From IMG/VR virus record IMGVR_UViG_2617270991_000003: 23,312 bases of DNA; one strand, given 5' to 3'. The first letter of the stretch is position 1. The number at the start of each line of letters is the position of its first letter. The notes beneath the pieces were generated by a model. That model was not told the origin of the DNA, did no database searches, and worked only from the letters and a program-made list of their open reading frames with translations. Shown piece after piece: positions 2,533 through 20,969 of this stretch. Source of the DNA: a virus (taxonomy: Duplodnaviria > Heunggongvirae > Uroviricota > Caudoviricetes). Both the position numbers and the translations under genes were made by a program.

Positions 2533-3090
2533 TCAACAATGAATTTTTAGCAATTGCTCCACAGTCATATTTTTAATTGCGCTCCGGTTTACAAGAGTCC
2601 ATCCTTGTTTCTCCAGATAAAACCGGAAGGTATCCAGGGTGCAGACCATTGCGCCGTCAGGAACGGTTTCAGTGAATTTGATATTGCCGTGTTCGTCGAG
2701 ACGGATAACCAGGGTGCGTCCGTCCCCGTGAATCATTTTGTCGGGAGACGGGGCGTTATTCTGGCGCAGTTCTTCCTCCATGCGATCGAACTCAGCGATG
2801 TAGGCTTCTTTGAAAGTTGCGGCTTTTTTACCTGTGAACCCCATCACCAGGAAAACGAAGCCGTTTTTGGTGATTTGGTACATGGGGCGTTTTTCGCCTT
2901 TGGCGTCGGTGTAGGTAACGGGCGTAAAATTGCGCTCGTTAAAATCTTCAGAGCATTCTAGCGTTTCAATTTTGCGCAGAACGTCCTTGTGCATTTTGCG
3001 GAAGAACTCTGCAACCGCAACAGACGTAGTGACAGCGCGACCATTTTCGATGGTTACGTCAGGGTGAGAAAGGGTAGGGATAGTAGCCAT
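2533..3090 (-). CDS. rha: Rha-family phage regulatory protein (185 aa)
   Basis: MATIPTLSHPDVTIENGRAVTTSVAVAEFFRKMHKDVLRKI...KNGFVFLVMGFTGKKAATFKEAYIAEFDRME fits the Rha domain pattern; ATG at 3090 with AGAGG RBS. The track ORF extends in frame to 3387 but that extension contains an intrinsic terminator. Confidence 0.7.
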   Translation of the reverse strand: MATIPTLSHPDVTIENGRAVTTSVAVAEFFRKMHKDVLRKIETLECSEDFNERNFTPVTYTDAKGEKRPMYQITKNGFVFLVMGFTGKKAATFKEAYIAEFDRMEEELRQNNAPSPDKMIHGDGRTLVIRLDEHGNIKFTETVPDGAMVCTLDTFRFYLEKQGWTLVNRSAIKNMTVEQLLKIHC

Positions 3091-3257
3091 AATGGCAGCC
3101 TCTTGGTTGAGTATTAATAACTCACCACCAAGGTTTTCCACGACCATAAGGGTGGTGAGGCGTACAGGGGTGGAAATACCGGTCAACCAAGAATCCGGCC
3201 AGCCTTGCAGCTGCCCTGCACGCCCCACCATAATCTGAATGTGGCTGTGCTTGACGC

Positions 3258-3282
3258 ATAAAAAAACCGCCTGAGCGCGGTT
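3258..3282 (-). terminator. Rho-independent terminator (leftward transcription) just upstream of rha
   Basis: Minus strand reads AACCGCGCTCAGGCGG followed by TTTTTTTA: short GC stem (CCGC/GCGG) plus a 7-nt U-run. Confidence 0.5.
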
Positions 3283-3564
3283 ATGCGCTTGATTGAATTC
3301 CGGGTTTCCACGCCCGGCACCCGTTTTATGAGGTGCAGGAGCACTATAATTCCACCCGTTCTGGTTTTCAATAGCTACATTCAACATTTTCTCTTACCTT
3401 TCATCACCGAAGTGAACTTTGTTGATGCGGTGCCTGGTGCCTCCAGGTGACGTTAACCAGTTAACAATTAACGCCGGATACAGAGAATCCACCCATAACA
3501 CTGTTTTTGGTTTTAACTGTTCCGCGTGCGCTTAGCCGCATTCACCGCATCACAAAATTCACTT

Positions 3565-12706: not shown

Positions 12707-12882
12707 TGCAGCGGGTGCTTGAGGCTATCTGTCTCAGGCATGAACACCAAAAGGCAGATAGAGAAAAGCCCCAGTTAACATTACGCGTCCGGCAAGACGC
12801 TTAACATTAATCTGAGGCCATATCTATGCTCTACACACGTAGGTTAGCCTCTTACGTGCCGAAAGGCAAGGAGAAGCAGGCT

Positions 12883-13038
12883 ATGAAGCAGCAAAAGGCG
12901 ATGCTAATCGCCCTGATCGTCATCTGTTTAACCGTCATTGTGACGGCACTGGTAACGAGGAAAGACCTCTGCGAGGTACGAATCCGAACCGGCCAGACGG
13001 AGGTCGCTGTCTTCACAGCTTACGAACCTGAGGAGTAA
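12883..13038 (+). CDS. hokD: Hok/Gef-family type I toxin (51 aa), HokD/RelF-like
   Basis: MKQQKAMLIALIVICLTVIVTALVTRKDLCEVRIRTGQTEVAVFTAYEPEE has the Hok family signature (TM helix, LTRK.LCE.R); track ORF 12826-13038 is an in-frame upstream extension (mok-like reading frame). Confidence 0.75.
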   Translation: MKQQKAMLIALIVICLTVIVTALVTRKDLCEVRIRTGQTEVAVFTAYEPEE

Positions 13039-17859: not shown

Positions 17860-17887
17860 TTGATTTTTCCCGAATCTGTGGTAAATT
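17860..17887 (+). promoter_or_regulatory. Candidate late promoter (pR'-like) just downstream of the Q-like gene
   Basis: TTGATT, 16-nt spacer, TAAATT. Confidence 0.3.
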
Positions 17888-17936
17888 TGCTCTAACGATG
17901 GGCGTTTTATGCCTGACGTTAGAAGATTTTTTACAC

Positions 17937-17958
17937 CCCGCCGCCTGGCGGGTTTTTT
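17937..17958 (+). terminator. Rho-independent terminator (tR'-like), about 65 nt downstream of the candidate late promoter
   Basis: CCCGCC-GCCT-GGCGGG hairpin followed by TTTTTT. Confidence 0.55.
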
Positions 17959-18080
17959 ATGACTGAAATCGCGTCAGTACAGTAAACGCGCTGGTGGCGG
18001 TGAATACCTGTCTTTCAGCTTGCTGGCTTTTTCGACAAGAGTTATTGGTGTGTCACGTTAACCGGAAAAGGGAAAAAGAC

Positions 18081-19687: not shown

Positions 19688-19700
19688 TTATCTGCATCAT

Positions 19701-19745
19701 GCGTTGTTAGCTCAGCCGGACAGAGCAATTGCCTTCTAAGCAGCT
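19701..19745 (+). pseudogene. Truncated tRNA (5' half only: acceptor 5' strand, D-arm, anticodon arm with loop CTTCTAA, anticodon TCT = Arg)
   Basis: GCGTTGT-TA-GCTC-AGCCGGACA-GAGC then anticodon arm; no T-arm or matching acceptor 3' strand (ACAACGC) found downstream; followed by a G/T-rich tract. Confidence 0.4.
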
Positions 19746-19893
19746 GTGGTTGCACTCCTGTTGTTTCTGGTGGTGATGGTGGACTTCAGCAGCCGGATAA
19801 TGTCGGTGCTGTCTGATGGTGTTTTGGTGGCGGGTGTGTGGTTGTTGCTTTCCCGTTGCTGAAAAAGAAAGCATCAGGCGATTAGCAGGGTAT

Positions 19894-20140
19894 CAGTTAC
19901 CCGTTGAAATTTTTAAATACCTCACAATTCCACAGCTTGATGATTGTCTGGCTGCCGGAGAATTTGTTAAAAATTACATCGCATGGTGAATCCCCCTCAG
20001 CGGCGGGGCATCTGGCAAAGTGTATGATCCAGAGAACATGCAAATTCAGTAGACAGGCTGAATTTACCGGGAGGCCCCTGGCACCATGCGACAGACAGAA
20101 ATTAGGCTATACTTCAGCCCCTCTCCGGAGGGGCTTTTCT
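19894..20140 (+). repeat. Structured repeat, copy 1 (about 247 bp), ending in an intrinsic terminator; candidate sRNA or processing/termination module
   Basis: Conserved blocks shared with copy 2: TTGTCTGGC, GTTTGTTAAAAA, GCATGGTGAATCCCCCT, CTGAATT(T/C)ACCGGGAGGC.CC.GGCACCATGC, AGCCCCTCTCCGGAGGGGCT; GCATGGTG and CACCATGC can pair as a long-range helix. Confidence 0.5.
20116..20140 (+). terminator. Rho-independent terminator at the end of repeat copy 1
   Basis: AGCCCCTC-TCCG-GAGGGGCT perfect 8-bp hairpin followed by TTTCT. Confidence 0.55.
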
Positions 20141-20329
20141 GTGCAGGATGTGTCACAGTTTCCTGAATTCTGAGTACTGTCCTGTTACTCAGGGTGCTAT
20201 ATTTTCTGACGTGATGAAAGTCTGCCGGAAGGCGGAACGTATCGGAAATGACCCAGTAGAGAAAACGTTGACTCAGATACCGATGCTGAGTTACCGGGAA
20301 ACCGGCATCACATGACCGCTATCCTTCCA

Positions 20330-20352
20330 GGCTCGCTCCGGCGGGCCTTTTT
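20330..20352 (+). terminator. Rho-independent terminator between the two repeat copies
   Basis: GGCTCGC-TCCG-GCGGGCC hairpin (one G-U pair) followed by TTTTT; same TCCG loop as the repeat terminators. Confidence 0.5.
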
Positions 20353-20363
20353 ACTGCAGAAAA

Positions 20364-20605
20364 CAGTTTTCCCGTAAAATGCCACGTTGCTCATAATTCA
20401 GGCTGGCGATTATTGTCTGGCCGGCGGGAAGTTTGTTAAAAAATTTCGCATGGTGAATCCCCCTGTGCGGAGGGGTAATCAGCGAGTAGGTATATGGGAT
20501 AATCGCGGATTCAGGTGCTGGTACTGAATTCACCGGGAGGCACCCGGCACCATGCAATGGCACATAGCGCCACTCTCCAGCCCCTCTCCGGAGGGGCTGT
20601 TTATA
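20364..20605 (+). repeat. Structured repeat, copy 2 (about 242 bp), ending in an intrinsic terminator
   Basis: Aligns with copy 1 across 5' and 3' conserved blocks, with a divergent middle segment. Confidence 0.5.
20579..20605 (+). terminator. Rho-independent terminator at the end of repeat copy 2
   Basis: AGCCCCTC-TCCG-GAGGGGCT hairpin followed by GTTTATATT. Confidence 0.5.
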
Positions 20606-20633
20606 TTGATTTTGTCAGATGTGAGTAAACTGC

Positions 20634-20969
20634 TTATGGACTTTGTTGTTTTAGCCCATAAGGACATATTTGCAGAGTGCAACGGTTATTAAAGCATTCA
20701 TTCAATACGTTATCTGTATTTGTAGGGCATTCCTGGCTGTTTTTGATTAAATTCCATAATGTTTTATTGAATGGTACTACGTTGTAAATGGTTACAGGTA
20801 GCACTTTGTTATTGAGCATGATGCCTGTGTGAGTCAGTGTAAATATACTTTCAGGAGGTAAGAAAGCATCCGATTGATACCAGATTATTAATTTTATTTT
20901 ACTCCATATGACTGAAAAAGATATTCCGCATGATGGCTGGATAACTGTATCAATCACAATCCACTTCAT
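20634..20969 (-). CDS. Possible hypothetical protein (111 aa) on the minus strand within an AT-rich island
   Basis: Track ORF; AGGAAA 6 nt upstream of ATG 20969; unusual Trp/Cys/Ile-rich composition; could equally be a chance ORF in AT-rich DNA. Confidence 0.25.

What the first reader, a model, noticed from the sequence alone, without database searches (positions are those of the whole stretch)
19894..20605. Tandem pair of about 245-bp structured repeats, each ending in an identical perfect terminator hairpin, at the stx-equivalent locus
Seen: two copies (19894-20140 and 20364-20605, period about 470 bp) share conserved 5' and 3' blocks with a divergent middle; GCATGGTG near the 5' block is complementary to CACCATGC in the 3' block; each copy ends in AGCCCCTC-TCCG-GAGGGGCT plus a T-rich tail, and a third terminator with the same TCCG loop lies between them. 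Small ORFs inside the copies are not conserved between them, which argues for RNA rather than peptide. Established knowledge: the interval between the late-region tRNAs and the esterase gene is where Stx phages carry stxAB, and regulatory sRNAs have been described in the late regions of EHEC prophages. Inference: duplicated sRNA genes or Q-dependent termination/processing modules occupying a cargo hotspot.
Basis: partly seen in the sequence, partly recalled or inferred. Interest (0 to 1): 0.65.

Follow-up and report, generated by a model that had tools for sequence, protein, structure and literature searches.

The report
Tandem prophage STnc100 small-RNA genes
The two repeats are copies of a known prophage small-RNA gene family (STnc100, also called EcOnc05/06/27 and related to PasD), a third diverged copy lies between them, and the locus is ordinary apart from its modular build.

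Summary
Both repeats are full-length matches to Rfam RF02076 STnc100, at 138 and 132.5 bits against a cut-off of 47. Copy B is essentially the Hfq-bound sRNA EcOnc05 of E. coli O157 Sakai prophage Sp4: the published Northern probe matches 35 of 35 bases.

I call it unit M (30 bits, below the cut-off). It has the same helices, kept by compensatory changes. The array is therefore three units about 230-240 nt apart, not two units 470 nt apart.

Each unit has three parts: a promoter region, a conserved four-helix 5' domain of about 108 nt, and a variable single-stranded tail ending in an intrinsic terminator. Covariation supports the domain strongly: 20 of 26 pairs show changes on both sides.

The array sits where Stx phages carry stxAB, between Q/tRNAs and iraM/esterase/holin. 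The real pR'-tR' module lies elsewhere, at 17862-17960.

The most likely function is three independently terminated, Hfq-type base-pairing sRNAs with different tail seeds. This is inferred from homologues and was not tested here.

In passing, the same 5' domain turned up downstream of DicF in this window and in the dicF-dicB spacer of K-12.

The parts
19894..19980 (+). Unit A upstream block, covering promoter candidates and a possible leader. The distal candidate has a -10-like CACAAT at 19923-19928. The proximal candidate is TTGTCT (19944-19949), an 18-nt spacer, then TGt-TAAAAA (19965-19973), ending 7 nt before the domain.
   Evidence: The block is conserved between units A and B and across 38 distinct upstream variants in viral contigs. 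The consensus promoter scan finds no + strand site here. The proximal geometry matches PasD2, whose RNA-seq 5' end is the G of GCAUGG. Northern sizes of EcOnc05 and EcOnc27 favour a 5' end about 45 nt further upstream.
19981..20089 (+). Unit A conserved 5' domain: closing helix P1 (GCAUGGUG/CACCAUGC), hairpins P2, P4 and P5, and a variable P3 region.
   Evidence: Rfam RF02076 scores 138 bits over 19951-20144. My model R1 scores 95.9 bits. The fold z-score is -3.8.
20090..20140 (+). Unit A tail (GACAGACAGAAAUUAGGCUAUACUUC, the putative seed) followed by the intrinsic terminator 20116-20135 and UUUU.
   Evidence: Terminator. The tail is related to the canonical STnc100/EcOnc27 tail ACAGAGAUUAGGCAUAUAC.
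20170..20208 (+). Unit M upstream region: inverted repeat CTGAGTA..TACTCAG, then an extended -10-like TGc-TATATT (20195-20203) about 7 nt before the domain.
   Evidence: Read directly from the sequence. The region is conserved in the 86%-identical M variant of E. coli 83972. Function is inferred.
20209..20313 (+). Unit M diverged 5' domain: P1 ACGUGAUG/CAUCACAU, P2 CUGCC-GGAA-GGCGG, P4 ACUCAG/CUGAGU, P5 CCGG-GAAA-CCGG.
   Evidence: Rfam RF02076 scores 30 bits, E 5e-5, over the full-length model, which is below the cut-off of 47. R1 scores 31.7 bits, E 6e-6. Helices are kept through compensatory changes. The unit occurs in 673 of 5426 E. coli genomes in two variants.
20314..20353 (+). Unit M tail (GACCGCUAUCCUUCC, CU-rich) followed by the terminator 20329-20348 (AGGCUCGC-UCCG-GCGGGCCU) and UUUUU.
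20364..20447 (+). Unit B upstream block. The distal candidate has a -10-like CATAAT at 20392-20397. The proximal candidate is TTGTCT (20413-20418), an 18-nt spacer, then TGt-TAAAAA (20434-20442).
   Evidence: The block is 93% identical to the region upstream of EcOnc05 in Sakai Sp4.
20448..20555 (+). Unit B conserved 5' domain, the commonest type in phage contigs.
   Evidence: Rfam scores 132.5 bits and R1 scores 125.6 bits. The EcOnc05 Northern probe matches 20477-20511 with 0 of 35 mismatches, and the EcOnc06 probe matches 20490-20524 with 1 of 35.
20556..20608 (+). Unit B tail (AAUGGCACAUAGCGCCACUCUCC, with an anti-Shine-Dalgarno-like CUCUCC) followed by the terminator 20578-20599 and UUUAUAUU.
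   Evidence: The tail is identical to that of EcOnc05 in Sakai Sp4 and of the unit downstream of stx2B in Stx2a phage LC645410.
3425..3550 (-). A separate fourth copy of the 5' domain, not part of the array. It lies immediately downstream of DicF and upstream of a Shine-Dalgarno sequence and ATG, and has no terminator.
   Evidence: R1 scores 50.1 bits, E 2e-10, full length. P1 is AUGCGGUG/CACCGCAU, which is four compensatory swaps. It is 97.6% identical to the K-12 dicF-dicB spacer.

Best explanation
The locus is an array of three tandem, same-strand genes for prophage small RNAs of the STnc100 family. The family is also known as EcOnc05/06/27 in EHEC and is related to PasD in EPEC. The array sits in the late-operon 'moron' site where Stx phages carry stxAB.

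Each gene is a self-contained unit: a promoter, a conserved four-helix 5' domain of about 108 nt, a short variable single-stranded tail, and an intrinsic terminator.

In a lysogen each unit is probably transcribed on its own and stopped at its own terminator. That would give RNAs of about 145-205 nt that bind Hfq through the terminator hairpin and U tail. They would then pair with target mRNAs or sRNAs through the CU-rich tail. The structured 5' domain would serve as a constant scaffold, plausibly protecting the RNA from 5'-end-dependent decay.

The three tails differ, so the three RNAs would have different target sets. During lytic growth, RNA polymerase modified by Q at pR' (17862-17960) would read through all three terminators to reach the esterase and lysis genes.

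Shown here: family membership, the fold and its covariation, the terminators, the synteny, and near-identity of unit B to EcOnc05. Taken from papers on homologues: expression, Hfq binding, and the seed position in the tail. Inferred: transcription of A, M and B in this genome, the 5' ends, the targets, and the role of the 5' domain.
For: Family membership and identity:
- Units A and B score 138 and 132.5 bits against a cut-off of 47.
- Unit B equals EcOnc05 of Sakai Sp4: the probe matches 35 of 35 bases, and the domain and tail are nearly identical.
- Unit M is a full-length sub-threshold match to two models.

Fold:
- On 38 distinct family sequences, 97.8% of cells pair.
- 20 of 26 pairs change on both sides, against 6 or fewer in the slid controls, and 0 of 500 shuffles reach the observed values.
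- RNAalifold independently recovers P1, P2 and P4.

Terminators: three intrinsic terminators on the + strand.

Expression and Hfq binding of homologues:
- EcOnc05, 06, 13 and 27 were recovered by Hfq crosslinking and seen on Northern blots (PMC4104026).
- STnc100_4 in EDL933 was Northern-positive, and 11 copies were transcribed (PMC5331693).
- PasD1 and PasD2 are Hfq-dependent. Their RIL-seq chimeras map to the 3' ~50 nt, and the seed UGUGAG lies in the tail (PMC8550237).

Modularity:
- The same B-type domain is joined to at least 8 different tails.
- Arrays of 2-4 units occur in other phage contigs and genomes.

Context: Q, methyltransferase, tRNAs, DUF3927, the array, iraM (- strand), esterase, holin. 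The synteny matches Stx2 phages.
Against: - No transcript data exist for this genome.
- Unit M has no experimentally studied homologue that I could identify, and it falls below the Rfam cut-off.
- The simple sigma-70 scan finds no + strand promoter in front of any unit.
- The 5' end is ambiguous. The PasD2 RNA-seq end is at GCAUGG, but the Northern sizes of EcOnc05 (~222 nt) and EcOnc27 (~235/247 nt) suggest a start about 45 nt further upstream.
- No direct target of any STnc100-type RNA has been validated in the papers read. Only overexpression effects on fimZ and espA, and RIL-seq partners of PasD, are reported.
- No target above shuffled controls was found inside the window.
- The 5' domain also occurs without a terminator, in the dicBF operon and in L130 units 1-2. 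Its role is therefore not tied to sRNA genes and remains unknown.
Confidence: 0.78

Rival explanations
1. The units act at the DNA or cis level as boundaries of mosaic modules. On this view they are conserved linker sequences that promote recombination between lambdoid phages, plus terminators that insulate cargo genes. Any RNA products would be by-products.
For: One near-invariant domain sequence is joined to at least 8 different tails and to different upstream blocks. Arrays differ in unit order between prophages. An M-type terminator remnant precedes EcOnc05 in Sakai Sp4. The third tRNA, argO, is cut at a junction just upstream.
Against: Compensatory changes keep four helices across copies that are only 31-62% identical, which indicates selection on the RNA fold. 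Homologues are abundant, Hfq-bound and Hfq-stabilised RNAs. Recombination at these sequences can coexist with an RNA function.
Confidence: 0.1
2. The conserved domain is a cis-regulatory leader, a riboswitch- or attenuator-like sensor that controls read-through or translation of the gene downstream (esterase, dicB).
For: The domain sits directly upstream of a Shine-Dalgarno sequence and ATG after DicF, both in this window and upstream of dicB in K-12, with no terminator. PasD2 ends 87 nt before the esterase gene. The junction nucleotides GGUGAAU and the P5 loop AGGCA are highly conserved.
Against: Unit A is followed by unit M, not by a gene. Unit B is followed by a convergent gene, iraM on the - strand. 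The tails between domain and terminator are hypervariable, and I saw no conserved alternative pairing with the domain. No Rfam riboswitch family matches.
Confidence: 0.08
3. The units are Q-dependent late-promoter modules, pR'-qut-tR' equivalents such as lambda 6S RNA or StxS, duplicated in the late operon.
For: Their size of about 160-200 nt is close to the 194-nt length I recall for lambda 6S RNA, which I did not check here. They end in strong terminators and lie in the late operon.
Against: A separate pR'-like promoter (TTGATT, 16 nt, TAAATT) with its own terminator (17937-17952) lies directly after the Q gene at 17862-17960 and shares no similarity with the units. Units of one type occur next to different Q genes and also in the early-left dicBF operon.
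Confidence: 0.03
4. The repeats are remnants of protein-coding sequence.
For: ORFs of 89 aa (+ strand) and 70 aa (- strand) overlap units A and B. RefSeq annotates a pseudogene fragment antisense to unit B and a hypothetical protein antisense to PasD1. Some EDL933 copies showed ribosome footprints.
Against: The ORFs lie on different strands in the two copies. Neither has a Pfam family. The A/B alignment has indels that do not preserve a reading frame. Substitutions follow base-pairing rather than codon structure.
Confidence: 0.01

Closest known systems
Rfam RF02076 STnc100 (Gammaproteobacterial sRNA, first listed in Salmonella prophages)
   Same: Units A and B match the whole 206-position model well above the curated threshold. 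They share its closing helix, internal hairpins and terminator. Unit A also carries the canonical tail ACAGAAAUUAGGCUAUAC.
   Different: Unit M and the DicF-adjacent copy fall below the threshold (30 and 34 bits). The first ~30 model positions may be promoter rather than RNA in at least the PasD-type members.
EcOnc05 / EcOnc06 (Hfq-bound sRNAs of E. coli O157 Sakai prophages Sp4 and Sp17; Tree et al. 2014, PMC4104026)
   Same: The RNA body of unit B (domain plus tail plus terminator) is nearly identical to the Sp4 gene. The probes match with 0 and 1 mismatch. The position after the late-region tRNAs and before the esterase is the same.
   Different: In Sakai the unit is single and faces a convergent anti-sRNA gene of the EcOnc08/AsxR/AgvB type. 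Here it is the third unit of an array and faces iraM, and no AgvB or AsxR match was found.
EcOnc27 / sRNA103 (downstream of stx2B in Sp5/933W)
   Same: Same family and same position relative to the cargo gene. The unit A tail resembles the EcOnc27 tail. An Stx2a phage (LC645410) carries the unit B tail after stx2B.
   Different: The P3 region differs, and the cargo upstream is stx2AB rather than DUF3927 plus further sRNA units.
PasD1 / PasD2 (EPEC E2348/69; PMC8550237; bioRxiv 10.64898/2026.05.13.724894)
   Same: Same P1 5' arm (GCAUGGUGAAUCC), P2 and P4, and the same context of Q, DUF3927, sRNA, esterase or holin. The seed lies in the tail next to the terminator, and the RNAs are Hfq-dependent.
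   Different: PasD lacks P5, has a different tail and terminator, and scores below the Rfam cut-off (41 and 38 bits). Neither PasD probe nor PasD seed is present in this window.
AsxR / AgvB anti-sRNAs (Rfam RF02703 / RF02702)
   Same: Same moron site, and the same design of one constant part plus one variable pairing part.
   Different: They are much shorter (51-60 nt), lie on the opposite strand, and have the variable part at the 5' end. They are not present in this window.
dicF-dicB spacer of the Qin prophage (E. coli K-12)
   Same: It contains the same four-helix domain: R1 scores 44.6 bits, E 8e-10, and it is 97.6% identical to window 3425-3550.
   Different: It lies inside a polycistronic early-left operon, with no promoter of its own and no terminator, directly upstream of a coding gene. 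The dicBF paper I read does not describe it.

Membership tests
Rfam RF02076 STnc100 | Covariance-model score at or above the curated gathering score (47 bits) | tested here: met
   Unit A scores 138 bits and unit B 132.5 bits over the full model. Unit M scores 30 bits and does not meet the cut-off on its own.
Rfam RF02076 STnc100 | Closing long-range helix enclosing internal hairpins, followed by a terminator hairpin | tested here: met
   P1, P2, P4 and P5 are 97.8% paired across 38 distinct sequences, and 20 of 26 pairs covary. Unit M keeps all helices through compensatory changes.
Rfam RF02076 STnc100 | Location in a lambdoid prophage late region, between Q and the lysis genes | tested here: met
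   RefSeq annotation of an identical locus plus Pfam on the window ORFs.
Rfam RF02076 STnc100 | Expressed as a discrete small transcript | not testable with these tools
   Known only for homologues: EcOnc05 ~222 nt, EcOnc06 ~177 nt, EcOnc27 ~235/247 nt, PasD 172-173 nt, and STnc100_4 by Northern.
Hfq-dependent trans-acting sRNA | Intrinsic terminator with a U tail as the Hfq proximal-face site | tested here: met
   Three GC-rich hairpins are followed by U4, U5 and U3AUAUU. The U tract of unit B is the weakest.
Hfq-dependent trans-acting sRNA | Own promoter | tested here: inconclusive
   The consensus scan finds none on the + strand. By eye there are conserved extended -10-like motifs and a second CACAAT/CATAAT candidate. 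The PasD2 5' end supports the proximal candidate, and the EcOnc Northern sizes support the distal one.
Hfq-dependent trans-acting sRNA | Accessible seed that pairs with defined targets | not testable with these tools
   The tails are predicted to be largely unpaired and are CU-rich. No in-window target exceeds shuffled controls. The host genome and interaction data were not available.
Q-dependent pR'-qut-tR' module | Promoter immediately downstream of the Q gene, with a short terminated transcript | tested here: not met
   That module is at 17862-17960, about 2 kb upstream, and is unrelated in sequence.
Protein-coding gene or remnant | ORF conserved between copies, or a match to a protein family | tested here: not met

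The most novel reading that the evidence does not exclude
The conserved ~108-nt four-helix 5' domain may be an autonomous, mobile RNA module of lambdoid prophages rather than part of one sRNA family. Three observations fit this reading. It is combined with interchangeable 3' seed-terminator cassettes. It is multiplied into arrays of 2-4 units at the stx/moron site. It also sits without a terminator between DicF and the next gene (dicB in E. coli K-12). On this reading the domain has a function of its own, such as 5'-end protection after processing, a processing signal, or a protein-binding platform. The arrays would then be a way of diversifying sRNA seeds on a constant scaffold.
Probability: 0.3. 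Interest if true: 0.5.

Novelty: already known. Interest (0 to 1): 0.25.

Why it matters
The two repeats add nothing new in themselves. They are instances of a curated RNA family whose EHEC and EPEC members have been seen on Northern blots and bound to Hfq.

The locus is useful as an example of how prophages pack regulatory RNAs into the same cargo slot that holds Shiga toxin genes. It shows three related sRNA genes with different putative seeds in 700 bp. The same segment is present at 80% coverage or more in 1012 of 5426 complete E. coli genomes.

Two by-products may deserve follow-up. The first is the constant-scaffold, variable-tail design, with a diverged third member that threshold-based annotation misses. 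The second is the presence of the same domain in the well-studied dicBF operon of K-12, where genetic tools exist to find out what the domain does.

Tried and rejected
It gave no taxonomic information.
2. The MAFFT alignment of all domain types misaligned P2 of unit M and the 3' end of PasD. I replaced it with a covariance-model alignment.
3. I searched the whole window for targets of the three tails by duplex energy. Nothing exceeded shuffled tails except trivial self-antisense matches.
4. I looked for PasA, PasC, PasD, EcOnc04, EcOnc08, EcOnc13 and EcOnc27 probe sequences in the window. None was present.
5. I looked for AgvB/AsxR convergent anti-sRNAs next to the units. There was no Rfam match even at E of 5 or below.
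6. Protein-coding readings of the overlapping ORFs were rejected.
7. The pR'-tR' reading was rejected.
8. I first assigned the 5' end of A and B to the G of GCAUGG by analogy with PasD2. Northern sizes of the identical EcOnc05 made this uncertain, so both promoter candidates are reported.

Full report
**Observation.**
- Three blocks of 30-35 nt recur 466-469 nt apart at 83-91% identity.
- GCATGGTG (19981-19988; 20448-20455) is complementary to CACCATGC (20082-20089; 20548-20555).
- Both copies end in AGCCCCTC-TCCG-GAGGGGCT followed by a T-rich run. A third hairpin with the same TCCG loop lies at 20329-20348.
- The region holds 9 terminator-like sites against 2.0 expected from shuffles.
- The overlapping ORFs are on different strands in the two copies and match no Pfam family. 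The A/B alignment has gaps that break any reading frame.

**Identity.** A gathering-threshold Rfam scan places both copies in RF02076 STnc100, full length. The hits are 19951-20144 at 138 bits and 20420-20608 at 132.5 bits, against a cut-off of 47. The family is documented in several papers.
- EDL933 has 11 transcribed copies, one of them Northern-verified (PMC5331693).
- An Hfq-bound sRNA, EcOnc27/sRNA103, lies just downstream of stx2B (PMC4104026, PMC7873438, PMC12711010).
- A copy was detected in outer-membrane vesicles of STEC (PMC12370729).
- A 2026 preprint links STnc100 to the EPEC sRNAs PasD1 and PasD2.

The Northern probe for EcOnc05 (Sakai Sp4) matches window 20477-20511 without a mismatch. 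The EcOnc06 probe matches 20490-20524 with one mismatch. The Sp4 gene is nearly identical to unit B through domain, tail and terminator. Unit B is therefore EcOnc05 in another prophage.

**A third unit.** At a relaxed threshold the 220-nt 'spacer' is itself a full-length STnc100 match: 20180-20355, 30 bits, E 5e-5. It keeps every element of the family.
- Closing helix: GUGAUG/CAUCAC.
- First hairpin: CUGCC-GGAA-GGCGG.
- Further hairpins: ACUCAG/CUGAGU and CCGG-GAAA-CCGG.
- The terminator.

A model I built from the 5' domain alone (R1) finds it again at 31.7 bits, E 6e-6. Unit M occurs in 673 of 5426 complete E. coli genomes as two variants, one at 99% identity or more and one at about 86%. The variants differ by pair-preserving changes in P2 and the terminator. 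The array is thus A (domain 19981-20089), M (20209-20313) and B (20448-20555), with starts 228 and 239 nt apart. Domain identities are A/B 62%, M/B 50% and M/A 40%.

**Structure.** I aligned 59 hits (38 distinct) to R1. They came from the window, E. coli genomes and IMG/VR contigs.
- 97.8% of cells form standard pairs.
- 20 of 26 pairs show changes on both sides, against 1-6 when partners are slid by 1-3 columns.
- None of 500 shuffles reaches the observed values.
- The alignment was fitted to the model, which favours the structure. However, RNAalifold on the same alignment independently recovers P1, P2 and P4.
- Single-sequence folds give z-scores of -3.8 (A), -3.0 (B) and -2.6 (M).

**Architecture of the family.** Across 71 unique units from viral contigs, one near-invariant 'B-type' domain is joined to at least 8 unrelated tails. 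A tail here means linker plus terminator. PasD's experimentally inferred seed UGUGAG lies in this tail, and its RIL-seq chimeras map to the last ~50 nt. The three tails in the window differ and are CU-rich next to the terminator.
- A: GACAGACAGAAAUUAGGCUAUACUUC
- M: GACCGCUAUCCUUCC
- B: AAUGGCACAUAGCGCCACUCUCC

This fits a constant scaffold with a variable pairing region.

Arrays are common.
- The same A-M-B triple occurs in L140, L185, L213 and L227.
- A different triple, B-type then M' then a third unit, occurs in L132, L139, L147, L156, L212, E. coli 83972 and pMY504-2.
- L177 has a double.
- L130 has a quadruple in which two units lack a GC-rich terminator.

**Context.** RefSeq annotation of an identical locus, together with Pfam, gives this gene order: RusA, antiterminator Q, a hypothetical protein, DNA methyltransferase, tRNA-Ile(CAT), tRNA-Arg(TCG), DUF3927, the array, IraM (- strand), SASA esterase, holin.
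- Stx2c phage 1717 has Q, stx2cA, stx2cB, one unit, iraM (- strand), esterase.
- An Stx2a phage has stx2B, one unit carrying the unit B tail, then a convergent AsxR-type terminator.

The array therefore occupies the stx-equivalent slot. The segment 19480-21220 is present at 80% coverage or more in 1012 of 5426 complete E. coli genomes.

**Where the late promoter is.** Directly after Q lies TTGATT, a 16-nt spacer, TAAATT, and then a terminator at 17937-17952. That is the pR'-tR' equivalent. It shares nothing with the units, so the 'Q-dependent module' reading fails. The units are terminators that Q-modified polymerase must override. That last point follows from established lambdoid biology and was not tested here.

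**5' ends.** These remain unresolved.
- PasD2's RNA-seq 5' end is the G of GCAUGGUG. It is preceded by TTGACT, 18 nt, TAAAAA.
- Units A and B have TTGTCT, 18 nt, TGt-TAAAAA in the same place. Unit M has TGc-TATATT.
- EcOnc05, which is identical to unit B, runs at ~222 nt and EcOnc27 at ~235/247 nt. The distance from GCAUGG to the terminator is only 153-175 nt.
- Allowing for the ~10% overestimate seen for EcOnc13/PasD (187 nt against 172 nt), these sizes fit a start about 45 nt upstream. That would follow the conserved CACAAT/CATAAT (19923-19928; 20392-20397).
- The consensus scan supports neither promoter.

**Mechanism.** The best-supported reading is three independently terminated, Hfq-type base-pairing sRNAs with different seeds. 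The structured 5' domain would serve as scaffold, possibly protecting the 5' end. Only the anatomy and the homology are shown here. Expression, Hfq binding and seed position come from papers on homologues. Targets are unknown, and none stands out within the window.

**Unexpected extra.** R1 finds a fourth domain copy at 3425-3550 on the - strand (50.1 bits, E 2e-10).
- It lies immediately after DicF and before a Shine-Dalgarno sequence and ATG.
- Its P1 carries four compensatory swaps, and it has no terminator.
- The dicF-dicB spacer of K-12 MG1655 is 97.6% identical to it. It scores 44.6 bits with R1 and 34.4 bits (sub-threshold) with Rfam STnc100.
- A recent study of dicBF processing does not mention this element.

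The domain is therefore not confined to sRNA genes.

**Verdict.** The modest additions are the diverged third unit, the scaffold-plus-variable-tail design with arrays of 2-4, and the domain homologue in the dicBF operon.

Noticed in passing
window 3425-3550 (- strand); L247 1956-2081 (E. coli K-12 NC_000913.3, about 1649455-1649580): A fourth copy of the STnc100 5' domain lies directly downstream of DicF and upstream of a Shine-Dalgarno sequence and ATG, without a terminator. The dicF-dicB spacer of K-12 Qin is 97.6% identical. Rfam scores it below threshold at 34.4 bits, so it goes unannotated.
   Followed up: partly
window 19690-19742: A third late-region tRNA, argO-type with an Arg UCU anticodon loop, is truncated after the anticodon loop. 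These 53 nt are 96% identical to argO of Stx2 phages. ARAGORN reports only two tRNAs, and the DUF3927 mini-gene (19776-19862) follows. This looks like a recombination junction inside a tRNA gene.
   Followed up: partly
L248 2541-2560 versus L249 2040-2061; equivalent to window 19962-19980 and 20431-20447: PMC12711010 reports two polymorphisms as linked to HUS-associated Stx2a prophages: T/C at +90 and a single-T deletion at +103 after stx2B. They are exactly the differences between Stx2c phage 1717 and an Stx2a phage just upstream of the domain. The first changes the TG of the extended -10-like motif TGtTAAAAA to CG. The second shortens the stretch between that motif and GCAUGG.
   Followed up: partly
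window 20634-20969 (- strand): A 111-aa ORF converges on the terminator of unit B. RefSeq names it anti-adapter protein IraM. It occupies the same position after the sRNA unit in Stx2c phage 1717. Pfam finds no family for it.
   Followed up: partly
window 2533-3387 (- strand), overlapping Rfam isrK 3260-3336 and C4 3148-3235: A 284-aa ORF has Pfam Phage_ASH (residues 14-109) and Rha (120-205) domains. Its N-terminal part overlaps two above-threshold RNA family hits, isrK and C4, on the same strand. Either the ORF start is misplaced or the Ash-family region and the RNAs share sequence.
   Followed up: no
window 12713-12888 (+ strand): A full-length sok antitoxin RNA match (117 bits) suggests a hok/sok-type toxin-antitoxin locus inside the prophage.
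   Followed up: no
window 17862-17960 (+ strand): This is the likely late promoter and first terminator (pR'-tR' equivalent) directly after Q: TTGATT, 16 nt, TAAATT, then hairpin 17937-17952 and T6. It would give a transcript of roughly 60 nt, comparable in position to StxS of Stx phages.
   Followed up: partly
L130 2326-3350 (- strand; IMG/VR contig 2861053794_000003): Four tandem domain copies lie within 1 kb. The first two are followed by AT-rich sequence instead of a GC-rich terminator, and the last faces an AsxR-type convergent terminator.
   Followed up: partly
L250 1681-1709 (E. coli O157 Sakai Sp4): Immediately upstream of EcOnc05, right after argO, lies a terminator (GGCTCGCTTTTGCGGGCC plus T8) that resembles the terminator of unit M. 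The body of unit M may have been lost there.
   Followed up: no
window 19951-19965 and 20420-20434 (Rfam model positions 1-15): PMC12370729 proposes that positions 5-15 of STnc100 pair with stxB. If the RNA starts at GCAUGG as in PasD2, that segment lies upstream of the transcript start and would not be in the RNA.
   Followed up: no
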